Positions 3,906 to 28,159 are shown, counted from the first letter of the stretch. The stretch: 64,000 nucleotides of DNA from Candidatus Binatia bacterium (GCA_022824205.1 JAJEAI010000201.1:4704-68703); one strand, 5' to 3'. The notes: generated by a model not told the origin, from the sequence alone. Translations and numbers: made by a program.

Positions 3906-4207
3906 GATTCCCGCTTTCCAGGCTGTGTCAAAACTCCAAACGAACACGGAATGGCACGGCCACCCCGAACCGTCATGGATATGAAAATAAATTCTTGTTC
4001 AATGATTTCTGGTAGTTACGGAATCCCGCTACACCCCAACGAGTCATTCCCGCGGAAGCGGGAATCCAGGCGGTGTGGGGCCGGGCAATAAGGCCGCCAG
4101 ACCCCCCACCCCTGGATTCCCGCTTCCGCGGGAATGACTCATTGGGGTGTGGGTGCCACCTCTTGTCCGCCAACGTTTTGACACAGCCTCTTCCGCGGAA
4201 TGACGAG
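3906..4207. repeat. MITE/REP-like nested palindromic element, copy A: outer IR GATTCCCGCTTTCCAGGCTGTGTCAAAAC / GTTTTGACACAGCC...GGAATGACGAG flanking a ~175-bp inner palindrome
   Basis: The inner unit GATATGAAAATAAA..TTGTTCAATGATTTCTGGTAGTTACGGAATCCCGCTACACCCCAA.GAGTCATTCCCGCGGAAGCGGGAATCCAGG is followed by its own reverse complement. The same unit recurs at copies B-F. Confidence 0.8.
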
Positions 4208-9203: not shown

Positions 9204-10388
9204 ATGGATCCGAGACTGAATCCCTATGCACCGGGGGCCGGGACGCCGCCGCCGGAATTGGCCGGGCGAGACACGCTGATCGAAGAGGCTGCCATCGCCC
9301 TGGACCGCATCCGTAACGGCTTGGCGGCCAAGAGCATGCTGATGGTGGGTCTCCGGGGGGTAGGCAAGACCGTCCTTCTCAACCGGATCTGCGACGACGC
9401 CCGAGGCCGCGGCTTTACAACGCTCCTCCTGGAGGCGCCGGAAGACAGATCGCTTCCCGTCCTGCTTGTTCCACCGCTACACGCCGCGCTGGTGCGCATG
9501 AACCGCATCGCTGCCGCCAGCGCCGCCGCCCGCCGGGCACTCAGAGCGCTTGCCGGGTTCGTCAGCGCCATCAAGGTAGGCACCGGCGACCTCAACATCA
9601 GCCTGGATCTCGCCCCGGAACACGGCCTCGCCGACAGCGGCAACCTGGACGCCGACCTGACGGCGCTCCTGGAATCCGTCGGCGAAGCCGCCCGCGATCA
9701 GGACACGGCGGTGGCGCTGTTCGTCGATGAGTTGCAGTATGTGCAGGAACGCGAACTGGCCGCGTTGATCGCCGCCCTCCACCGTGCCGCCCAGAGCCGC
9801 TTGCCGGTCACTCTGGTGGGCGCGGGCCTGCCCCAACTGGTCGCCCGCACCGCGTCCGCCAAGACCTATTCCGAGCGTCTCTTCACTTTCCCGGGGATTG
9901 GTCCGCTGGACCCCGATTCCGCAAGGCTTGCCATCGAAGCGCCGGCAAGGCGCCTTGACGTCGTCTTCCAACCGGCTGCCCTGGATGCGGTGCTGCAAGA
10001 CACCCGGTGCTACCCGTATTTCCTCCAGGAGTGGGGCAAGCACTGCTGGGATTGCGCCAGGTCGTCACCGGTGACGGCGGAAGACGTCGAGTCCGCCACC
10101 CGACAGGCAACCGCCGAACTGGACGCCAGCTTCTTTCGCGCCCGCTTCGATCGCTTGGCGCCCTCCGAAAAGCGCTACCTGCGCGCCATGGCCGAACTCG
10201 GCACCGGCCCGCACCGATCCGGCGAAATCGCCGACGTCCTCGGCCAGTCCGTCCGCGTCGTAGCCCCGACCCGCGCAAAGCTCATCGGCAAAGGCATGAT
10301 CTACAGCCCCGCCCACGGCGACACCGCCTTCACCGTCCCGCTGTTCGACGCCTACCTGCGCCGCGTGATGCCGTTTCCAGAGGGGTGA
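9204..10388 (+). CDS. AAA ATPase, ORC/Cdc6- or COG1672-like, with predicted C-terminal winged helix
   Basis: The N-terminus NPYAPGAGTPPPELAGRD, followed by the Walker A motif GLRGVGKT, is typical of AAA_16/archaeal-type ATPases. It converges on the SIR2 gene. Confidence 0.5.
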   Translation: MDPRLNPYAPGAGTPPPELAGRDTLIEEAAIALDRIRNGLAAKSMLMVGLRGVGKTVLLNRICDDARGRGFTTLLLEAPEDRSLPVLLVPPLHAALVRMNRIAAASAAARRALRALAGFVSAIKVGTGDLNISLDLAPEHGLADSGNLDADLTALLESVGEAARDQDTAVALFVDELQYVQERELAALIAALHRAAQSRLPVTLVGAGLPQLVARTASAKTYSERLFTFPGIGPLDPDSARLAIEAPARRLDVVFQPAALDAVLQDTRCYPYFLQEWGKHCWDCARSSPVTAEDVESATRQATAELDASFFRARFDRLAPSEKRYLRAMAELGTGPHRSGEIADVLGQSVRVVAPTRAKLIGKGMIYSPAHGDTAFTVPLFDAYLRRVMPFPEG

Positions 10389-10390
10389 GG

Positions 10391-10430
10391 CGCCCACAAG
10401 GAGGGCCGGACACCAGCTGTGGGCGCCCTT
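10391..10430. terminator. GC-rich hairpin (GGCGCCCACA...TGTGGGCGCC) between convergent genes; possible bidirectional terminator
   Basis: A perfect 10-bp stem lies immediately after the stop codon at 10388. No strong T-run follows it. Confidence 0.4.
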
Positions 10431-10486
10431 ATAGTTCTAGACCCTCACAGATCTGGTTCGCTCTGTTGTGGAAACAGCGACTGGTA

Positions 10487-13400
10487 TCAGGACGTGGCCC
10501 GTCGGTACATCTCCTGAAAATCCGGTTCCGTTTCTAGTGCGGGCAATGCCTTTTTGAGACTATCGAGAATCCCTTGGATACGATACGCGCTGCCGGGTTG
10601 AATGGGTCCGGGTCCCACAACTCGCGTAAGGATGTCGAAGACGGTCTCCGGATACTTCGAAACACAATCACTCTCTTCCAGGACATATAGACCGTATTGG
10701 TCCCCAGGATTCAGATGGTGAGAAAATTCCGCCACAGCCTTCGGGAATGCGTCGCCGCACTCGAGCAGCAAGAGTAACATTCCCCTGGATGTCTCGGACG
10801 TGTTGCGGGCTCCCTCGTTGGGCCAATACTTTTTGAGCCACGGCAACAACGCGCTCTCCCACATCGTTGCGCGTTCCCCGGAGTCGCCATTCAGCCGTCT
10901 TCTGAGGCTGTCAAGAACCGCCGGTAGTTGATTGTTCGTCAAAGATGCAACGACTTCGCGAATCTCGTCCTCCGCCAACTCGCTTGGTGCTTCAATGCAA
11001 ATGACCATGAACAGTTCCACGAGTCGATCCCGATCATGTTCCCTGACCCCGTCCAACGTCTTGAGTACGCTCAGGAAGGGCTGTTTGAATGCGGCGAGAA
11101 GATCAGGGCCAACCTTGGGCGATAGCGCATACGCTCCCCAAAGGATGTAGGCTTCCTCGGGCGGTTGTGACGGATCGAGACGCCAGAGGAGGTGCTTGTT
11201 GGTCCAGTGTGGGTCAATCGCGAATAGGTCGTACAGCCTATGAACCAAATTGACCCGACCCCAAAGGCCTTCTGGATCGCTAACGATTTTATCAAAATAC
11301 GGTAGGATTGCCGCCGGCAATTTCCCCTGAACAGTCGGGCTGTATTTCCACAGTCGGGTCAGCGCCGCTTGTGCCAGTCTACCAGTCACATGGGTCAACG
11401 CTTGATCGGACAGATCGTGTCCATTCGGTGCTGACTCGGGCGCCCCTTCCCACGCTTTTTGCCAGAGTGTCGCAAACTCCGGTTCTCGTTCAAGGCCGTA
11501 CCTCTCTGCCAAATTGTCCACAAAACCAGCGGCCGCTGAGTCGACGCCTGAGAACAGCGTGACAGGGGCATTGGCAAGGACACGGGCGACACAGTCCTGA
11601 AGTCTCGGCGTCGACCTCTGCACGTTCGGTCCCTGCAAGTGCCAAAGGAAGAGCTGCCAGCAGCGTTGAGGATATTCTTCTTGGTCCGCCAGTCGTCGCA
11701 AAGCCCGTGCAACCTTTACGGGTCGCCGACGGATAAGCCCTTCGAGGGGCAAATCGCCGATTCCTGGATCTTGCAAGGCAGTCGTCAGACCATGAACGGT
11801 AGTCTCGACGAGTTCAGGTGGCGCAAACTCTGCCGGATCGATCCAGTGCGCTTCGCTTCCCCACGACAAGAATTCGTCGCGATCCTCATTGGCATCCCCA
11901 CCCTGCCATTTCACGGCGAGTGACCTGGACTCCTTGTCCAGTTTAGCGCCGCCAGCCGCAAGTTTGCTGAGCCGTAGCGCTTTCTCACGGTCGAGGATGT
12001 CGCTGTCGTAAGCCGAAAACGATCCTTGCCCTGCCTTCGGTCCCGCGTGAATGGCTCGAACGATATCGACGCGCAGACTTCGAGGCAAACGCATCCCTGC
12101 CAACCTTAGGAAGCGCAAGACTTCCCTCCGCAGCTCGTATTCCCACAGGCCGGGTTTCCGACCCGTGATGAGGAGTTTCCTGGCGATACCCATGTCGGGT
12201 TTTCCGCTCTCCGTGAGCGCATGAAGTGCAAGCCGCTTAAGCAGAGGCCGCCTAGACAGTACCCACCGCTCCAGGAGATTTGCCGCAAGTGCCCGGTCTC
12301 TTTGGAACAAGGCCGGGTAGCTGTCTCGGACGAGGTCTATGATGTACGTCCAATCGGCTCGGTGTAGATTTTGCCTGTGCGATGCAATAGACGGACGATA
12401 ATTTCCTGAATCTTGACGATGGCCTTCCATGTCTTCGAGCAGGGTAAGCGCTGTTTCCAGGTAGGTCGTCAGTGTCATGGCGTTTTCGGCGACGAAGCCT
12501 GGATCGTTCAGAATGTTGCGAATACGGTGCCGCATGTCTTTGTCGCCGACCAACAGTTCAAGGTGAGCGCAGGAATCCACCGCCGACAAGGCGCGTTGCT
12601 TCCCTCCGAGGGACTGTCGGAACCTCTTGTGCCACGAAGGACCGGAACGAACCACGTACCGTGGAGCGATGCTCTGGACCACCTGTTCATTGAGCCGACG
12701 GCGTTCAGCCTCGGAGGCTGTTTGTTGCATTGATGCCGGTGGCCATAGGAACGGCTCGTGATAGATCAACTCATTGTCCGAAAGAACTGTCCAGATGTGT
12801 CTGAGTTCGCTGGGGACCTCCACGGCAGGTTCGATAAGTTTCCCTCGGATCAGCCTGTGAAGGGAGGGGTGCATTTTCCCGCCCCTCTCAACTACCCAAG
12901 TCAGTACTTGGGAAATATGGAGATGCAGAGCAATCCACCGCGCCAAATGCCATGTGACCTTTCCCAATAATGGAGGACTTTGGGTACGTTCGCCTCCGTC
13001 TACCAACTGGACGTGGGAGCTGGCGTGGTCCACCCCGGCTTCGTCCAGGCTTTCAGCGCAAGATAGCAATCCCGCATCGGCGAAGATGTCTAGCCACTTC
13101 GTCAGTCTTGGGAAATCTCTTTCGTCCGTCAGCGGGGTGCTGTCGGCCAATCTTTCCGCAGCTATCGGGTCGTGCAGAGCCCACACAACGCGCTCCACGA
13201 CCGGGTCGTCCGGGCCACCCGGGAGCTTCGACATCTCATTAAGGGCTATTTGAGTGCGCGCCCGGAAGGGATCGTTCCGAATGCGTGCCCACTCTGTTAA
13301 TGTCTGGCGGAGCAGGCCATGATCGCCTTGTTTGTCATACAAAATCGGCACGACGTTCTTTGCCTGCCAGGCTCTGTCGGTTCTCTCCTTGTTTGCGTCG

Positions 13401-14164
13401 GTGCCGTCGTGGTCGGCGAACGCGTAAGCCAGCCGGAAAGAGGCTCCCTTGGAGCGTTCGGCTGCGAGAGCGTCGACCATGTAACCCATAACGGGGTCGT
13501 CGAGGCTGTAACCGATGAACACAATCGTGAACTCACGAAACAGCTCGGTGACGAATCGGGCCGCCCACTGCTCCGTAAGGTAGGCACGCCCGAAGTCGGC
13601 AGCGGTCAAAACCAGATCGGTGCCGTCGCTGTCCCCACAGATGCGGCCATGAAGATGCACAACCGACGACCAGTTGTGGCGCTTTGGCCAAGGTAGTTTC
13701 GGCGCGGAATCAACCTTCTTTTCGTCAATCCCCGCTTCCACGAAGCGGTTGTCGAAATTGGTAGTGACAAGACGGACACCCTGTTTGTGGCGCGAAAGGT
13801 CGATCAGCGCTTTGTGGTTGGTCAGTTCATCATGGGGTGGCTTCGATAGCAGAGTCATGACACAGCGACGTAGCTGTAGAGTGCCGAGACGTTCCGGCCT
13901 CTCGATCAAGTTGAGCACCTTGTCGAGTTGCGGTCGTCGACGGGTGTCGTCCTTCTCGTCGCAGTCGAGAGCTTCTCTCTCGACAATGTCAGGCGTGAGG
14001 TCTTTGGTCTTGTAGATATGCTTCACGAGACCGCCAAAGTTGGGAAGTCCAGACTCCGGTCCCATGGAAACGCCAGCCCCACAGAAGAAGACGGCACGGC
14101 CGTCGTCGAGTTCGTTCATTAGGCGAATGGGGATGTTTGGTCCCTTCGCTACGAGTTCAGGCAT
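10487..14164 (-). CDS. SIR2-like (SIR2_2) domain protein with ~950-aa alpha-helical C-terminal region; DSR-like (DSR1/DSR2-type) candidate anti-phage NADase
   Basis: The N-terminal 270 aa carry AVFFCGAGVS...GLPNFGGL, VTTNFD and HLHG, which are the signature blocks of the SIR2_2 family. The rest is helical repeats with no other motif. The GC content looks lower than in flanking genes. Confidence 0.7.
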   Translation of the reverse strand: MPELVAKGPNIPIRLMNELDDGRAVFFCGAGVSMGPESGLPNFGGLVKHIYKTKDLTPDIVEREALDCDEKDDTRRRPQLDKVLNLIERPERLGTLQLRRCVMTLLSKPPHDELTNHKALIDLSRHKQGVRLVTTNFDNRFVEAGIDEKKVDSAPKLPWPKRHNWSSVVHLHGRICGDSDGTDLVLTAADFGRAYLTEQWAARFVTELFREFTIVFIGYSLDDPVMGYMVDALAAERSKGASFRLAYAFADHDGTDANKERTDRAWQAKNVVPILYDKQGDHGLLRQTLTEWARIRNDPFRARTQIALNEMSKLPGGPDDPVVERVVWALHDPIAAERLADSTPLTDERDFPRLTKWLDIFADAGLLSCAESLDEAGVDHASSHVQLVDGGERTQSPPLLGKVTWHLARWIALHLHISQVLTWVVERGGKMHPSLHRLIRGKLIEPAVEVPSELRHIWTVLSDNELIYHEPFLWPPASMQQTASEAERRRLNEQVVQSIAPRYVVRSGPSWHKRFRQSLGGKQRALSAVDSCAHLELLVGDKDMRHRIRNILNDPGFVAENAMTLTTYLETALTLLEDMEGHRQDSGNYRPSIASHRQNLHRADWTYIIDLVRDSYPALFQRDRALAANLLERWVLSRRPLLKRLALHALTESGKPDMGIARKLLITGRKPGLWEYELRREVLRFLRLAGMRLPRSLRVDIVRAIHAGPKAGQGSFSAYDSDILDREKALRLSKLAAGGAKLDKESRSLAVKWQGGDANEDRDEFLSWGSEAHWIDPAEFAPPELVETTVHGLTTALQDPGIGDLPLEGLIRRRPVKVARALRRLADQEEYPQRCWQLFLWHLQGPNVQRSTPRLQDCVARVLANAPVTLFSGVDSAAAGFVDNLAERYGLEREPEFATLWQKAWEGAPESAPNGHDLSDQALTHVTGRLAQAALTRLWKYSPTVQGKLPAAILPYFDKIVSDPEGLWGRVNLVHRLYDLFAIDPHWTNKHLLWRLDPSQPPEEAYILWGAYALSPKVGPDLLAAFKQPFLSVLKTLDGVREHDRDRLVELFMVICIEAPSELAEDEIREVVASLTNNQLPAVLDSLRRRLNGDSGERATMWESALLPWLKKYWPNEGARNTSETSRGMLLLLLECGDAFPKAVAEFSHHLNPGDQYGLYVLEESDCVSKYPETVFDILTRVVGPGPIQPGSAYRIQGILDSLKKALPALETEPDFQEMYRRATS

Positions 14165-14262
14165 AGTCTCTACAGGTTGGGTACTTTGCCGTTCGTCGTG
14201 TCACAGGCGCATACAGGTCGGAATGCCTTACTCCAGGAGTCTCCCGGGAAATTACGCTGAGC

Positions 14263-14955
14263 TTAAGCCCCGTGGCTCTCCAACCGTTGCAACCACGCTT
14301 CGAAGTGTGGACATTCTGCCCGTATGGCATCTAGGCCGATTCCCAGCGCGGCGAGGGTTCCCATCAAGGGTTTTTGGTATCCGGGAATGAGTGCAGCGAC
14401 TCGCTTCGAAGGCGCCGTGTCCGGGGAGTCGTCGATTTCTTCGGGGTTTGAGAAGGCGTCTCTAATCGCCTGAAGCGGGCCGGTCAGTTCGGACTTGCCG
14501 ATCCCAAGGGCAAATTGCTCGCAATCGCTGAACAGGAGTGCCTCGAACTCGTGCATTGTGACGAACGGAATGAAGCGGGACGAATCGAAGCCGCCGCCCA
14601 TTATCCTAGCGACATCCTCCAGAAGGGCCTTCTCCACGACTTCGGGTTTTGCCTGGGATCCGGCATGAGAGGCTTCCTCGCGACCTGGCCATGCTTTGGG
14701 ACCGGTACGTGGCAACCCGTAGTAGTCCACCATCGTGGCCGCGCTGCTCGCGGGGTCTTGCCTCAGGTGATTCACAATCGTCTTGCGCACTTCCGATCAC
14801 GGTCGGACACCGCCACGCTTGCCCCGCTGCCGGGCGTTACCGATGAGCCGGGCGCTGACTGAGGAGTATCCGTGATCTTGGAGATGGGGCGCGAGCAATT
14901 TGTTGACGAATTGCTCTTCGGTCTGCCCCTCGACATGAACGAGTAGCCGGGTCAC
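14263..14955 (-). pseudogene. DUF4276 family (TOPRIM/RloB-like) gene, disrupted by a frameshift at ~14790-14797
   Basis: The N-terminal fragment, GTG at 14955 to TGA at 14797, reads MTRLLVHVEGQTEEQFVNKLLAPHL. It resumes in another frame as the 175-aa ORF 14263..14790, which contains ...MHEFEALLFSD...PEEIDDSPDTAPSKR...CPHFEAWL. The two pieces together, ~228 aa, equal a full-length DUF4276. Confidence 0.6.
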
Positions 14956-16124
14956 CGCGAAGACTGCCGGTCCTTGTTTTCAGGGTAAGGACGTCCGCCG
15001 AGTTCGTTCTTCTCCCAAAGTTGTCCCAGGCTGTAGTCCTCCAGCCAGACCTTGAGCGCTTCGGCATCCTGTCTGCGGAGTTCCGTGGCACCGTTCACCC
15101 GCTCGGCCACCAACACGTCTTCGGGGTCGAAGTGATCCAGAAGTATAGGCGATTGGGTTGCCGCGATGACCTGGGACTCTACTGAGGCCTGTTTTAGCAA
15201 TGAGGCCAACAAGGTGATCGCATGTGGATGCAAGCCAAGCTCCGGCTCGTCGAGAAAAATGACAGAGGGGCGTAGCGACGCTGGCTGGAGCAGTAACGTA
15301 GCCAAAGCAATGAACCGGAGCGACCCATCGGAAAGGGAGGAGGCATCGAAATAGGCATCCGAGTCGACATGCCGCCATTCGAGCCGGATCGTGTCTTCGT
15401 TCAGTGCTAGAGGTTCGAGCGCGAAATCATCGAAGAACGGCGCCGTCAATCGAATAGTACGGCGAATCTGCGTATAGGAACTTCCGTGTCTCTTCCGCAG
15501 GAAATAAAGGAACGCCGCAAGATTCGCGCCGTCCGGGCGAAGATAGCGATTGTCGTTTACTTTTCCGGTCTCCTTCATTGGGGATTTTGAGCCCGCGTCG
15601 TGAAAGTGGTAAAGTCGCCAACTCTCCAACCTGCTCCTGATGAATTCAAGAGCCGGCGCCATACCAGGCTGCACTTCGAGGTTGCTTGCGAAATCCGGCG
15701 GCAGTTCGGTTGCGGCAATCGATATTCGTGGAAACAACTGATCGTCCGCCCCGTAAGGCATATCGACACTAAAGTCCGCCAAACCGTCACTGAAGCGGAT
15801 GTTGAAGTTTATCGAGCGAGTCTTTTTTGAACCGAAGTGAAGAAGACGGTTGGCCCCGCCAGAACGCCGGACATAGTCTGATGTCCGAGACGCGCTCAGA
15901 ATGGCGGTTCGCAAGAGCTGCAGGGCGCCAAGAAAGTTGGACTTGCCTGACCCGTTGGCGCCGATGAGGACGTTCAGGGGCCGCATTTCCAGGTCCCGCA
16001 TCTCAGCAATGCTCCTGAAGCCTTCAATCGAAATGGCACGAATCGCCGACATGGTTCCCTCTGTACCCGGAACACCGGCCGACGCTGTGGGTTCGACTGG
16101 GTGTTCCGAAAGCCAAGATGCCAC
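14952..16124 (-). CDS. ABC-type AAA_15/AAA_21 ATPase (OLD/RloA/AbiLi-like)
   Basis: The Walker A motif is VLIGANGSGKSN. The Walker B/D-loop is VIFLDEPELGLHP. The stop TGA overlaps the GTG start of the downstream DUF4276 gene (GTGA). Confidence 0.75.
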   Translation of the reverse strand: MASWLSEHPVEPTASAGVPGTEGTMSAIRAISIEGFRSIAEMRDLEMRPLNVLIGANGSGKSNFLGALQLLRTAILSASRTSDYVRRSGGANRLLHFGSKKTRSINFNIRFSDGLADFSVDMPYGADDQLFPRISIAATELPPDFASNLEVQPGMAPALEFIRSRLESWRLYHFHDAGSKSPMKETGKVNDNRYLRPDGANLAAFLYFLRKRHGSSYTQIRRTIRLTAPFFDDFALEPLALNEDTIRLEWRHVDSDAYFDASSLSDGSLRFIALATLLLQPASLRPSVIFLDEPELGLHPHAITLLASLLKQASVESQVIAATQSPILLDHFDPEDVLVAERVNGATELRRQDAEALKVWLEDYSLGQLWEKNELGGRPYPENKDRQSSR

Positions 16125-16213
16125 GTCCCTGCGCTAGCGGCAAGCTGGCAGCCTGCGGTGACTTACACCAGTGCGCCAGCGTCCGTTGGGAACACAAGCC
16201 GGCCGGCCTGCCA

Positions 16214-16480
16214 TCAGAAAATCTCCTCGATGTCCTTCCCAATCATCGACCGTTCGCGGACAACGATCTCCAGACCAAGAGCGGTCATCACATCCAGCAA
16301 CGTGCGCATCCGCGTCCCCGGCATACCGTTCTCCAAGGCCGAGATGGTTGCCTGTCGTAGACGAATCCTGTCCCCGACTTCCTGCTGACTCAGTTTGAGT
16401 ATCCGACGCCGACGGCGAATTGCTGCACCCAGTTGTATCGAGGTTCGGGCCATCTGTTCCACAAGCCTTCCTCCTCTCAA
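16214..16480 (-). CDS. XRE-family helix-turn-helix transcriptional regulator
   Basis: LKLSQQEVGDRIRLRQATISALENG is a Cro/C1-type HTH. The true start may be the internal Met of MARTSIQLG, about 30 nt downstream. Confidence 0.6.
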   Translation of the reverse strand: MRGGRLVEQMARTSIQLGAAIRRRRRILKLSQQEVGDRIRLRQATISALENGMPGTRMRTLLDVMTALGLEIVVRERSMIGKDIEEIF

Positions 16481-16516
16481 TACGGATCTACTATGCGTTA
16501 TAGCGAATAAATAGCA

Positions 16517-16545
16517 AATATACGGTCTCCCGTATACGGTCTATG
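16517..16545. promoter_or_regulatory. direct repeat TATACGGTCT-CCCG-TATACGGTCT containing the palindrome CCGTATACGG; candidate operator upstream of the XRE gene
   Basis: This is read directly in the 16480-16568 intergenic region, immediately 5' of the XRE gene start. Confidence 0.3.
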
Positions 16546-16567
16546 GCAAGACCGGAGCACACACGCC

Positions 16568-17341
16568 CTACCGCTTGTAGAGACTGGGTAATCTCGGCCA
16601 AGCCGACCGGCGCATCTCGCCGTCGAACACGCCCCGCTTCCCCCTCAGAAACTCCATGGCGTCGGTCCACGCCTTGGCTTCGGCCGGGATGATTTCTTCC
16701 CGCGCGCGGTGGTCGTGTTTCTCGGTGAACCGGTCGAGGGTGTCGTGCAAGGATTGTGCGGCGCGGATCTGGAGTTGCCGTAGTTCGGCGAAGTGCGGGT
16801 CACCGCCCTGGGTTTCTTCGGCCACGAGGAAATGCGGGATGCAGATACCGAAAGAGTTGCGGTACTTCTCGGCGAAGGTCCCGTCTCCGAGCAGGTCCAG
16901 CAGTTGTTGGAGGTGGACGGACTCCGACCGGGCGGCAACCACGCAGGCGGGACAGGGCGTCTTTTTGAGTCGTGCCCGGAGGCCTGAACGAGCACGTGTC
17001 AGCCAACCTTTGAGCGTGGCCCATCCAGCCACGCGTGGTGCATTGGCCCTGTCGTGGAAACGGCTCAGCAGGTCCTTGGCGATGATGGCGAAGCCCAGGT
17101 CCGGGGCGCTGGATGCCGGCAGGTCGCGCAGCAGCCACATGTGCGGGTTGCAGAGGCCGAAGGACTCCCGCAGCCCCTCGCGCGTGGGCACGTCGGTGAC
17201 GCGTTCGTAGAGGACGCTGTCCAGGTAGGCGTGGCTGTCGTCGATGACGATGGCGCAGATGGGGCAGCCCGGCTTGCCGAGGCGGTCGAAGAGCTTGAAG
17301 TAGAAGCTGTCGTGGCGCGCTTGTTCGTTCACGTCACTCAT
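16568..17341 (-). CDS. hypothetical protein with two tandem CPxC...CxPH(M/F)(W/L) modules (putative metal-binding)
   Basis: The repeated modules are GCPICAIV...FGLCNPHMWLL and PCPACVVA...FGICIPHFLVA. I recognise no enzymatic motif. Confidence 0.45.
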   Translation of the reverse strand: MSDVNEQARHDSFYFKLFDRLGKPGCPICAIVIDDSHAYLDSVLYERVTDVPTREGLRESFGLCNPHMWLLRDLPASSAPDLGFAIIAKDLLSRFHDRANAPRVAGWATLKGWLTRARSGLRARLKKTPCPACVVAARSESVHLQQLLDLLGDGTFAEKYRNSFGICIPHFLVAEETQGGDPHFAELRQLQIRAAQSLHDTLDRFTEKHDHRAREEIIPAEAKAWTDAMEFLRGKRGVFDGEMRRSAWPRLPSLYKR

Positions 17342-17370
17342 GAAATCGGGCGTGTTGGCCGCCTCCGGGT

Positions 17371-17677
17371 CATTGATATGAAAATAAAGTCTTGTTCAAT
17401 GATTTCTGGTAGTTACGGAATCCCGCTACATCCCAATGAGTCATTCCCGCGGAAGCTTGCCCTCGACTCCGATCGGGGGCGGGAATCCAGGGGTGGGGCC
17501 GGGCAGTGAGGTCGCCACACCCCCCACCCATGGATTCCCGCCCCCGATCGGAGTCGAGGGCAAGCTTCCGCGGGAATGACGATATGGGGTGGCGGTGCCA
17601 CTTCCACTTCGTAGCCGAGCGGAGTCTTGACACAGCCTGGAAAAGCGGGAATGACGGAGGGAGCCGGGAATGACGGA
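17371..17677. repeat. MITE/REP-like element copy B (inner palindrome with a 25-bp insertion, plus right outer arm CTTGACACAGCCTGGAAAAGCGGGAATGACGG)
   Basis: It has the same unit as copy A. It abuts the stop codon of the MOP-like gene at 17678. Confidence 0.8.
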
Positions 17678-20422: not shown

Positions 20423-20552
20423 GGGTTCCTCGGTGGGGAGGTTTCGCGGGTTCTTGCGGCGGACTCGATCATCTGTAGCAGATCGCCGTGCGGGCCGCGA
20501 GGAGGAAACGACGAGGAAAACATCGTTGCGGTTGGCCGCCGACGCCCCTCAA

Positions 20553-20778
20553 CGTCATTCCCGCGGAAGCGGGAATCCAGGGGTGGGGGGTGTGGCGGCC
20601 TCATTGCCCGGCCCCACCCCGCCTGGATTCCCGCTTCCGCGGGAATGACTCATTGGGGTGTAGCGAGATTCCGCAACTACCAGAAATCATTGAACAAGTT
20701 TTTGTTTTCATATCAATGACGATTCGAGGAGTCTCTGCCCTGTGAGTATTGACACAACCTGAGAAGCGGGAGACAAGG
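20553..20778. repeat. MITE/REP-like element copy C (reverse orientation, left half truncated)
   Basis: The sequence GTCATTCCCGCGGAAGCGGGAATCCAGG...CATTGGGGTGTAGCGAGATTCCGCAACTACCAGAAATCATTGAACAAGTTTTTGTTTTCATATCAATGACGA...TTGACACAACC lies between the UbiD stop and the MOP start. Confidence 0.75.
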
Positions 20779-23172: not shown

Positions 23173-23410
23173 CCCCCCAATGAGTCATTCCCGCGGAAGC
23201 GGGAATCCAGGCGGGGTGGGGCCGGGCAATGAGGTCGCCACACCCCCCACCCCTGGATTCCCGCTTCCGCGGGAATGACTCATTGGGGTGTAGCGAGATC
23301 CCGTAACTACCAGAAATCATTGAACAAGTTTTTATTTTCATATCAATGACGACTCGATGGGCCTCCGCCCCATGAGTCTTGACACAGCCGCTTCCGCGCG
23401 AATGACGACC
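23173..23410. repeat. MITE/REP-like element copy D
   Basis: It has the same inner palindrome plus the outer arm CTTGACACAGCCGCTTCCGCGCGAATGACGACC. Confidence 0.8.
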
Positions 23411-26707: not shown

Positions 26708-26985
26708 TCATTGATATGAAAATAAAATCCTGTTCAATGATTTCTGGTAGTTACGGAATCCCGCTACACCCAATGAGTCATTCCCGCGGAAGCGGGAATC
26801 CAGGCGGGGTGGGGCCGGGCAATGAGGTCGCCACACCCCCCACCCCTGGATTCCCGCTTCCGCGGGAATGACTCATTGGGGGGGCCGACGCCCCATTTTC
26901 ATTCCCCTTTGTGTCGGCTGCAAGCCGACATGGGTGATTCCCGCCCCCGATTGGGGTCGAGGGCAAGCTTCCGCGGGAATGACTC
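26708..26985. repeat. MITE/REP-like element copy E (full left arm plus accessory hairpin TCGGCTGCAAGCCGA)
   Basis: It has the same unit, followed by ...GTGTCGGCTGCAAGCCGACATGGGTGATTCCCGC... Confidence 0.8.
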
Positions 26986-27842: not shown

Positions 27843-28159
27843 TCAGGTAGTTACAGACGTCCGTCTTCGTCATTCCCGGCGCTCCAATACGTTATTTCCG
27901 CCCCCCAATACGTCATTCCCGGTCCCCTCTCCGTCATTCCCGCCCCCTCTCCGTCATTCCCGCCCCTTCTCCGTCATTCCCGCGGAAGCGGGAATCCGGG
28001 CGGGGTAGGGCCTGGGGCAATGGGGCCGCCACACCACCGCCCCTGGATTCCCGCTTCCGCGGGAATGACGGAGAGGGGGCCGAAGTCTCCTTTTCAACGG
28101 CCTGTGTGTCGGCCGAAAGCCGGCATGGGTGATTCCCGCGAAACAGGCTGTGACGAAAC
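27843..28159. repeat. MITE/REP-like element copy F, including a 3x21-bp minisatellite (CTCTCCGTCATTCCCGCCCC) at ~27925-27990
   Basis: There are five GTCATTCCCG occurrences in 130 bp. The core is GCGGAAGCGGGAATCCGGGCGGGGTAGGG...CCCCTGGATTCCCGCTTCCGCGGGAATGACGG. The outer-arm variant is GATTCCCGCGAAACAGGCTGTGACGAAAC. Confidence 0.75.

What the first reader, a model, noticed from the sequence alone, without database searches (positions are those of the whole stretch)
14263..16124. OLD/AbiL-like two-gene module: AAA_15/21 ATPase translationally coupled (GTGA) to a DUF4276 TOPRIM-like gene
The ATPase has the Walker A motif GANGSGKSN and Walker B motif VIFLDEPE. Its TGA stop shares three bases with the GTG start of the next gene. 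That gene begins MTRLLVHVEGQTEEQF..., which matches the conserved DUF4276 N-terminus. An ATPase plus a TOPRIM-like partner is the split form of OLD-family nucleases (compare Gabija GajA, PARIS AriA/AriB, AbiLi/AbiLii). This is a probable abortive-infection/defense module. An XRE regulator sits immediately upstream.
Basis: partly seen in the sequence, partly recalled or inferred. Interest (0 to 1): 0.65.

Follow-up and report, generated by a model that had tools for sequence, protein, structure and literature searches.

The report
HEC-01 defence gene pair, nuclease disrupted
This is an ordinary copy of a catalogued candidate anti-phage gene pair (an ABC-type ATPase plus a DUF4276 nuclease-like partner, PADLOC "HEC-01"), but the nuclease gene is cut short by a stop codon at a conserved tryptophan, so the module is probably switched off in this genome.

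Summary
The two genes exist at 14263-16124, on the minus strand. The ATPase (16052..14952, 366 aa) has intact Walker A, ABC signature and Walker B motifs. It overlaps the next gene by GTGA. That gene matches Pfam DUF4276 end to end (E 2.9e-48). PADLOC places the pair in HEC-01 (HEC-01A 3e-125, HEC-01B 2.9e-71).

It replaces a Trp that is invariant in 56 homologs (TGG>TGA). An independent assembly is 100% identical, stop included. The closest relative (94% nt identity) has the intact gene.

The ATPase-DUF4276 adjacency holds in every informative related locus, across many phyla. The XRE gene occurs only in close relatives. The downstream Dsr1 sirtuin is a 3.85 kb insertion unique to this genome.

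Stops at this same Trp recur in other lineages. A wider sample shows stops at W89 too, so this looks like ordinary mutability of Trp codons plus repeated loss of the effector, not recoding.

The TOPRIM fold rests on the literature. My Foldseek tests were not significant.

Verdict: a new, recently inactivated member of a known candidate defence family, of modest interest.

The parts
14952..16052 (-). HEC-01A: ABC-type (AAA_21/AAA_15) ATPase, 366 aa, apparently intact. The longest ORF extends to a GTG at 16124.
   Evidence: Pfam AAA_21 1.9e-31. PADLOC HEC-01A PDLC04175 3e-125, covering 5-362 of 363 profile positions. All 89 positions that are >=97% conserved in 128 homologs are retained, including G[AP]NGSGKSN, LSDG[TS]LRF, DEPE, LGLH and TQSP. 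Orthologs start MSAIR.
14952..14955 (-). GTGA junction: the ATPase TGA stop overlaps the GTG start of the DUF4276 gene.
   Evidence: Sequence. The same 4-nt overlap occurs in 27 of 81 related loci and the genes are adjacent in essentially all of them.
14797..14955 (-). HEC-01B (DUF4276), N-terminal 52 codons plus the premature TGA. Contains the invariant E9 and E14 and the basic GNARQRxxRGG loop.
   Evidence: Translation. Called as a separate 52-aa gene in an independent assembly. Alignments A1 and A2.
14797..14799 (-). In-frame TGA replacing the invariant Trp53 codon (TGG>TGA).
   Evidence: W is invariant in 56 homologs. The change is polarised to this lineage. An independent Logan contig is 100% identical.
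14263..14796 (-). Remainder of HEC-01B (codons 54-230, ending in TAA). All other invariant residues are retained (D77, H135-E136-x-E138, D176-S177-P178 and others).
   Evidence: Read-through translation matches DUF4276 1-192/192, E 2.9e-48, and HEC-01B PDLC04188 at 2.9e-71. Invariant columns.
16214..16480 (-). XRE/HipB-like HTH gene (82-88 aa), a lineage-specific neighbour upstream of the ATPase.
   Evidence: Pfam HTH_3 4.2e-08. NCBIfam Y4mF/HipB-type, below cut-off. Its sequence is present only in L005, L006, L007 and L165 among about 165 loci.
10487..14164 (-). Dsr1-like SIR2 defence gene (1225 aa). It is a neighbour, not part of the pair, and sits within an insertion (about 10424-14274) unique to this genome.
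   Evidence: PADLOC Dsr1 4.1e-161. NCBIfam Dsr1 2e-190, but 635 bits against a cut-off of 1400. Absent from all related loci.

Best explanation
The locus is a stand-alone copy of the PADLOC candidate defence system HEC-01. An ABC-type ATPase (HEC-01A) is translationally coupled to a DUF4276 protein (HEC-01B), which the literature classifies as a divergent TOPRIM metal-dependent nuclease. By analogy with PARIS, OLD and Gabija (inference), the ATPase acts as the sensor or regulator and the DUF4276 protein as the nucleic-acid-cleaving effector. The tight coupling suggests the two are made together and form a complex. In this genome the effector gene has a recent TGG>TGA nonsense mutation at the invariant Trp53. 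The 52-aa product lacks the invariant acidic residues D77, E136, E138 and D176; I infer these form the catalytic centre, but did not test that. Any restart product would lack strands beta1-beta2 and E9. The module is therefore most likely inactive: a young pseudogene allele of the effector next to an intact ATPase. It sits in a variable chromosomal defence hotspot that, in this lineage only, has also gained a Dsr1 sirtuin. Shown: family membership, gene coupling, the stop and its polarity, the intact ATPase motifs, and the lineage-specific Dsr1 and XRE. Inferred: nuclease activity, the sensor/effector roles, and loss of function.
For: Family: PADLOC HEC-01A 3e-125 and HEC-01B 2.9e-71; Pfam AAA_21 and DUF4276. 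Coupling: the ATPase ends just upstream of DUF4276 in all 80 genome loci and in 59 of 59 informative metagenome loci. Stop: in-frame TGA at codon 53. W53 is invariant in 56 homologs. The change W>* is assigned to this lineage using L165, L006 and L005. Logan contig L001 is 100% identical over 7389 nt, and gene callers split the gene into 52 aa + 156 aa. The closest relative, L165 (94% nt), has an intact 233-aa gene. Recency: dN/dS of about 0.25 equals the controls, and own-branch changes are 7N:6S against 5N:6S in the ATPase. ATPase integrity. Literature: HEC-01 is described as ABC ATPase plus TOPRIM with an OLD-like metal site; DUF4276 is placed in the Toprim superfamily and linked to Mad4; one HEC-01 protected against at least one of T4, T5 and T7; mad3 and mad4 deletions reduce MADS defence. 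Independent effector disruptions are common in the family: 5 of 161 loci carry nonsense mutations, and 192 short N-terminal fragments were found.
Against: The TOPRIM fold was not confirmed by my own tests. Foldseek of a confident model (pLDDT 90) found no significant hit in the PDB or BFVD. The PDB profile search returned nothing and no weak Pfam Toprim hit appeared. One published test of HEC-01 found no defence in E. coli. The absence of detectable relaxed constraint downstream of the stop is also what one would expect if the gene were still functional. The two assemblies that agree on the stop may come from the same reads.
Confidence: 0.72

Rival explanations
1. The TGA allele is still functional, either as an attenuated (hypomorphic) form or as a split form. 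Occasional read-through of UGA by tRNA-Trp would restore exactly the wild-type residue. Alternatively, termination followed by re-initiation at the GTG six nucleotides downstream would give two fragments that reassemble, since the break lies next to the model's only disordered loop.
For: Stops at this same codon recur independently: window TGA, L028 TGA, L106 TAG, plus seven more 52-residue-ending fragments in the protein collection. In the locus sample, 3 of 5 nonsense events fall on one codon, P about 0.002-0.02 under mutation-only nulls. There is no excess of nonsynonymous change after the stop. The stop sits just after the only low-confidence loop in the model.
Against: L106 uses TAG, and its codon 56 is GTT, which is not a start codon. 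Stops before W89 are also recurrent (4 fragments), and pooled W53:W89 is 10:4, not significant, with retrieval favouring shorter fragments. All stop alleles are tip-level variants with intact alleles at >=90-93% identity. No RNA family and no stable structure lie downstream of the UGA (z = +1.0). The base following the stop is not conserved.
Confidence: 0.08
2. The stop codon is a sequencing or assembly artefact and the gene is intact in the organism.
For: It is a single-base difference from relatives. The agreeing assemblies may derive from the same read set.
Against: A Logan assembly of SRR16351689 is 100% identical over 7.4 kb including the stop. Four contigs in the collection carry the truncated 156-aa product, drawn from NCBI, Logan and ENA sources. 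Substitution errors are rare in consensus assemblies.
Confidence: 0.05
3. The pair is not an anti-phage system at all. It could instead be a toxin-antitoxin-like addiction module or a DNA-repair-type ABC ATPase/nuclease pair, with its defence label resting only on genomic association.
For: [quoted passage not shown] Pfam labels AAA_21 'putative AbiEii toxin'. Frequent effector disruption fits any toxic gene.
Against: A HEC-01 representative protected against at least one of T4, T5 and T7. The homologous Mad3 and Mad4 contribute to MADS defence. Here the pair sits in a variable slot next to Dsr1 with low GC (0.575-0.589 against about 0.66 in the flanks), as defence islands typically do.
Confidence: 0.12
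4. XRE, ATPase, DUF4276 and Dsr1 together form one new four-gene system.
For: All four genes are co-oriented with short gaps (98 and 161 nt), and no convincing terminator lies between them.
Against: Dsr1 is next to the pair in none of about 160 related loci, and not even in the 94%-identical relative. The insertion boundary lies about 10 nt after the DUF4276 stop codon. XRE is confined to the closest relatives and lies downstream of the pair in L007.
Confidence: 0.03

Closest known systems
HEC-01 (Hma-embedded candidate 1; PADLOC-DB; Payne et al. 2024, bioRxiv 10.1101/2024.01.29.577857)
   Same: Both proteins hit the HEC-01A and HEC-01B models full-length and very strongly. The two-gene order and the tight coupling are the same, as is the ABC ATPase plus TOPRIM-like description.
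   Different: This copy stands alone in a metabolic gene neighbourhood and is not embedded in an Hma/MADS system. The B gene carries a premature stop at Trp53.
Mad3-Mad4 accessory pair of the MADS system (bioRxiv 10.1101/2023.03.30.534895; link to DUF4276 stated in PMC12065111)
   Same: An AAA_21-type ATPase paired with a DUF4276 homolog. The ATPase shows partial similarity to mad3 models (PADLOC 1.1e-24; NCBIfam 7.1e-31).
   Different: The NCBIfam MAD3 score is 107.8 bits against a cut-off of 420. No methyltransferase and no clear mad6, mad7 or mad8 genes lie nearby; the AAA_16 neighbour has only a weak mad8 hit (E 1.5e-4). Gene 2 hits no mad4 model at E <= 0.01.
PARIS (AriA ABC ATPase + AriB DUF4435 TOPRIM nuclease)
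   Same: A two-gene ABC ATPase plus TOPRIM-class partner. It probably works in a similar way, with the ATPase holding or activating a nuclease effector.
   Different: The partner is DUF4276, not DUF4435. The AriA models hit only weakly (1.6e-29 and below), and no AriB hit was found. The trigger and the target are unknown here.
AbiL (AbiLi ATPase + AbiLii RloB-like) and class 1/2 OLD nucleases, including Gabija GajA
   Same: The same broad class: an AAA_15/21 ATPase associated with a TOPRIM-superfamily nuclease. The best solved-structure sequence hit for the ATPase is an OLD-family nuclease (6p74, E 4.9e-6, Walker A region only).
   Different: AbiLi hits at 7.6e-24, Old at 2.6e-20 and GajA at 6.3e-17, against 3e-125 for HEC-01A. 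Gene 2 hits no AbiLii/RloB or OLD-TOPRIM model. OLD and GajA are single fused polypeptides, and Gabija also needs the GajB helicase.
Menshen NsnC variants with a C-terminal DUF4276 domain (PMC12065111)
   Same: The same predicted effector domain.
   Different: A different system architecture (NsnA/B/C). The NsnB model hits the ATPase only at 8.1e-19.

Membership tests
HEC-01 (PADLOC) | ATPase matches a HEC-01A profile | tested here: met
   PDLC04175 E 3e-125, residues 3-355 against profile positions 5-362 of 363.
HEC-01 (PADLOC) | Partner matches a HEC-01B profile / Pfam DUF4276 | tested here: met
   PDLC04188 E 2.9e-71. Pfam DUF4276 E 2.9e-48 over 1-192/192, using the read-through translation.
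HEC-01 (PADLOC) | The two genes are adjacent and co-oriented | tested here: met
   GTGA overlap. Adjacency is conserved in all 80 genome loci and in 59 of 59 informative metagenome loci.
HEC-01 (PADLOC) | Both genes are intact open reading frames (needed for a functional member) | tested here: not met
   TGA at codon 53 of the B gene, at an invariant Trp. The A gene is intact.
HEC-01 (PADLOC) | Confers anti-phage protection | not testable with these tools
   [quoted passage not shown] This copy has not been tested.
TOPRIM superfamily (for the DUF4276 protein) | TOPRIM fold (beta2-beta1-beta3-beta4 sheet) with a conserved Glu after beta1 and acidic residues after beta3 | tested here: inconclusive
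ABC-type ATPase (SMC/RecF/OLD-like) | Walker A, ABC signature (LSGG-like), Walker B and D-loop motifs | tested here: met
   G[AP]NGSGKSN, LSDG[TS]LRF, DEPE and LGLH are invariant in 128 homologs and present here. PDB hits are to OLD, SMC, UvrA and PtuA. The usual H-loop His is Gln (TQSP) across the family.
PARIS | AriB (DUF4435 TOPRIM) partner and an AriA-specific ATPase | tested here: not met
   No AriB hit for gene 2. AriA hits (1.6e-29 and 1.8e-16) are far weaker than the HEC-01A hit.
AbiL | AbiLi ATPase plus AbiLii (RloB-like) partner | tested here: not met
   AbiLi hits at only 7.6e-24. There is no AbiLii or RloB hit for gene 2, even at Pfam E <= 10 for orthologs.
OLD / Gabija | ATPase and TOPRIM fused in one polypeptide (plus the GajB helicase for Gabija) | tested here: not met
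   The genes are separate. Old hits at 2.6e-20 and GajA at 6.3e-17, both partial. No helicase gene is adjacent.
MADS | Mandatory mad6, mad7 and mad8 genes plus a methyltransferase; Mad3 equivalog score | tested here: not met
   NCBIfam MAD3 scores 107.8 bits against a cut-off of 420. The neighbours are metabolic genes, judged from gene calls in syntenic relatives. Only a weak mad8 hit (E 1.5e-4) was found, on the AAA_16 neighbour.
Dsr1 (neighbouring gene 10487-14164) | Full-length match to Dsr1 models with an N-terminal SIR2 domain | tested here: inconclusive
   PADLOC Dsr1 4.1e-161 over 4-1217, and Pfam SIR2_2 2.2e-21. NCBIfam Dsr1 scores 635 bits, below the equivalog cut-off of 1400. It is Dsr1-like, not an equivalog.

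The most novel reading that the evidence does not exclude
Stops at the invariant Trp codons of HEC-01B (W53 in at least 10 independent alleles, W89 in 4) could be a recurrent, selected 'dimmer switch' rather than plain decay. A UGA at a Trp codon is the one nonsense mutation that natural near-cognate read-through by tRNA-Trp repairs to the exact wild-type protein. Such an allele would keep a toxic nuclease at trace levels and could revert in a single step. In this lineage it coincides with the gain of Dsr1.
Probability: 0.06. Interest if true: 0.5.

Novelty: new member of a known kind. Interest (0 to 1): 0.27.

Why it matters
On its own this adds one more, probably inactive, copy to a family with thousands of members, so it changes little. 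It has two uses. First, automated defence-system callers would score this locus as an intact HEC-01, so it illustrates that domain hits alone overstate functional defence repertoires. Second, the comparative data describe how the family evolves. The ATPase-DUF4276 pair is the conserved unit. XRE and Dsr1 are exchangeable neighbours in a chromosomal hotspot. About 3% of family members carry independently disrupted effector genes, concentrated at Trp codons, which fits an effector that is costly or toxic to keep.

Tried and rejected
(1) Genetic-code recoding (TGA = Trp): rejected. The ATPase itself ends at TGA in the GTGA junction, and the same junction recurs in 27 of 81 related loci. One parallel W53 allele uses TAG.

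(2) Selenocysteine or structured read-through signal: rejected. Homologs carry Trp, not Cys. There is no Rfam hit, and the RNA fold downstream of the stop has z = +1.0.

(3) A window-wide scan for other genes split by a single stop: uninformative, because this high-GC sequence contains many long spurious ORFs.

(4) W53 as a special hotspot: initially suggestive (3 of 5 nonsense events, P about 0.002-0.02). It was largely dissolved by the fragment catalogue, which also shows W89 stops.

(7) Dsr1 or XRE as obligate partners: rejected by synteny.

(8) Sigma-70 promoter and terminator scan: nothing above background.

Full report
OBSERVATION. The interval 14263-16124 holds two co-oriented genes on the minus strand.

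The upstream ORF (GTG at 16124, 390 aa) most likely starts at the ATG at 16052, giving 366 aa. A GAGGGA motif lies 5-10 nt upstream of that ATG. An independent gene call gives 366 aa. Four orthologs begin MSAIR. The PADLOC profile alignment starts at residue 3.

It matches Pfam AAA_21 (1.9e-31) and AAA_15 (1.1e-14).

Its TGA stop overlaps the GTG start of the next gene as GTGA at 14955..14952. The two codons share two bases, not three.

The next gene begins (V/M)TRLLVHVEGQTEEQF. Read through, it matches DUF4276 over the whole profile (E 2.9e-48).

Codon 53 of this gene is an in-frame TGA (14799..14797). It splits the gene into a 52-codon ORF and a 175-codon ORF in the same frame.

FAMILY. PADLOC models place the pair in HEC-01: HEC-01A at 3e-125 and HEC-01B at 2.9e-71, both essentially full-length. 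Hits to AriA, AbiLi, Old, GajA, NsnB and mad3 are 100 or more orders of magnitude weaker. Gene 2 hits nothing except HEC-01B models. NCBIfam hits to transporter ATPases, SMC and RecF are all far below their cut-offs.

By sequence, the nearest solved structures are an OLD-family nuclease (Walker A region only, E 4.9e-6), SMC heads, UvrA and PtuA. The ATPase is therefore ABC-type, with no close solved relative.

Across 128 near-full-length homologs, the window ATPase keeps all 89 positions that are >=97% conserved. These include Walker A, the LSDG[TS]LRF signature, DEPE and the LGLH D-loop. They also include a family-wide TQSP in place of the usual H-loop histidine.

LITERATURE. Payne et al. define HEC-01 as an ABC ATPase plus a TOPRIM-like protein with an OLD-like metal site. 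They found no protection against their phage panel in E. coli. A 2026 Nature Communications paper reports that one HEC-01 representative protected against at least one of T4, T5 and T7. A 2025 NAR paper places DUF4276 in the Toprim superfamily and names Mad4 of MADS as a homolog. In MADS, mad3 and mad4 are accessory genes whose deletion reduces defence. The PARIS paper lists DUF4276 among the partner domains of AAA15/21 defence ATPases.

MY TOPRIM TEST. The model is confident: pLDDT 90.1, pTM 0.87. It has alternating beta-alpha elements. The invariant E9 sits at the end of strand 1, and the invariant D77 sits at the end of strand 3.

The TOPRIM assignment is therefore a literature-based inference, not something I confirmed.

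THE STOP CODON. Position 53 is Trp in all 56 aligned homologs. The closest sequences read RPWSEV. The change is therefore a single TGG>TGA transition. Using L165, L006 and L005 as references, it is polarised to this lineage.

A Logan assembly of SRR16351689 is 100% identical to window 10012-17400, including the stop. Its gene caller produced separate 52-aa and 156-aa products. The truncated 156-aa product is on record from NCBI, Logan and ENA sources.

The closest relative, L165, is 94% identical in DNA across 8.9 kb and encodes an intact 233-aa protein.

There is no measurable relaxation of constraint. dN/dS against relatives is about 0.25, the same as relative-versus-relative controls. This lineage's own changes are 7 nonsynonymous to 6 synonymous in DUF4276, against 5 to 6 in the ATPase. 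All other invariant residues are retained. The mutation is therefore either recent or, less likely, tolerated.

The 52-aa product keeps E9, E14 and the basic loop. It lacks D77, H135-E136-x-E138 and the DDSP motif. A restart product would lack strands 1-2 and E9. Loss of nuclease function is the straightforward inference.

IS THE STOP PROGRAMMED? Two other lineages have a stop at the same codon. L028 is a Candidatus Binatia MAG, 63% identical, with TGA. L106 is a metagenome contig, 63% identical, with TAG.

Among about 161 loci there are five nonsense alleles, three of them at W53. Under mutation-only nulls with transition and GC>AT bias, P(any codon hit >=3 of 5) is 0.002-0.02. I followed this up.

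A profile of the first 52 residues returned only short proteins from the 5.8-billion-protein collection: 192 hits, of which the best 120 were listed. Of those 120, 45 have clean in-frame ends. Eight end just before W53 and four just before W89. Smaller clusters end before Gln and Tyr codons.

Pooled, W53:W89 is 10:4, which is not significant, and retrieval favours the shorter fragments.

Several further points argue against recoding:
- L106 uses TAG, and its codon 56 is GTT, not a start codon.
- The stop alleles coexist with intact alleles at >=90-93% identity.
- No Rfam family matches the region, and no stable RNA structure follows the stop.
- TGA demonstrably terminates the ATPase gene.

I conclude that Trp codons are simply the family's most nonsense-prone sites, and that the effector is repeatedly and independently lost. 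About 3% of members are disrupted. A selected hypomorph or split-protein reading is not excluded, but it is unlikely (6-8%).

CONTEXT. GC drops to 0.575-0.589 across 10-16 kb, against about 0.66 in the flanks.

The ATPase lies immediately upstream of DUF4276 in all 80 genome loci, which span many phyla. The same is true in 59 of 59 informative metagenome loci. The 4-nt overlap is the commonest junction, at 27 of 81. The pair is therefore the conserved unit.

The window is collinear with related MAGs labelled Deltaproteobacteria, Thermodesulfobacteriota and Binatia. The shared order is Mo-hydroxylase, DUF6062, then the pair, then an AAA_16 gene and Opp permease genes.

The 1225-aa gene downstream (10487-14164) is Dsr1-like: PADLOC 4.1e-161, Pfam SIR2_2, and NCBIfam below the equivalog cut-off. 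It lies in a segment (about 10424-14274) that is absent from every relative. That segment begins about 10 nt after the DUF4276 stop codon. Relatives carry other short ORFs in this slot, with no Pfam or PADLOC match.

The XRE/HipB-like gene is present only in the closest relatives (L005, L006, L165), and it sits downstream of the pair in L007.

Neither XRE nor Dsr1 is part of the system. The locus is a variable defence hotspot. No tRNA gene lies in the window.

VERDICT. The precise family is HEC-01, related to Mad3/Mad4; it is not AbiL, PARIS or Gabija. The effector gene is interrupted, so this copy is probably inactive.

This is a new, degraded member of a known candidate family, of modest interest.

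Noticed in passing
window 10424-14274 (gene 10487-14164, minus strand): A Dsr1-like SIR2 defence gene of 1225 aa is a 3.85 kb insertion unique to this genome. It is absent even from a 94%-identical relative, and its boundary lies about 10 nt after the DUF4276 stop codon. Relatives hold different short, unannotated ORFs in the same slot.
   Followed up: partly
window 17429-17591; also ~4043-4138, 20551-20649, 23184-23279, 26777-26872, 27972-28070; L003 1728-1827, 4556-4655, 7812-7914, 17299-17398: A dispersed palindromic intergenic repeat of about 100 nt. The copy at 17429-17591 has 70-nt arms that are 91% complementary. Copies occur in both orientations in this genome and in relatives, resembling REP or MITE elements. 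No Rfam family matches the 17429-17591 copy at gathering threshold.
   Followed up: partly
window 9204-10388 (+); L019 8803-9982: An AAA_16/nSTAND-like 394-aa gene lies convergent with Dsr1 and has a weak PADLOC mad8 hit (E 1.5e-4). A 59-66% identical homolog sits directly downstream of the HEC-01 pair in a distant Chloroflexota MAG (L019), hinting at an occasional association.
   Followed up: no
L005 6919-8681 compared with window 14263-16052: The pair is mosaic in one relative. The DUF4276 gene is close to ours (88% aa, dS 0.32), but the adjacent ATPase is much more diverged (70% aa, dS 1.3). This suggests recombination between the two genes.
   Followed up: no
window ATPase residues 299-302 (TQSP); 128 homologs: The whole HEC-01A family has Gln (127 of 128) where ABC ATPases usually carry the H-loop/switch histidine.
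   Followed up: no
L028 8157-8159; L106 1412-1414; L075 6615-6617; L148 2656-2658; proteins P0131-P0249: Independent disruptions of HEC-01B are common. They include stops at W53 (TGA, TAG) and before W89, and many frameshift-like fragments. In all there are 192 short N-terminal fragments, against more than 7000 full-length homologs.
   Followed up: yes
window 16568-17341 (minus strand): A DUF6062 gene rich in CxxC motifs is the conserved upstream neighbour of the pair in the Binatia-like relatives. It is only 78% identical in DNA to L003, where the flanks are 90-94% identical.
   Followed up: no
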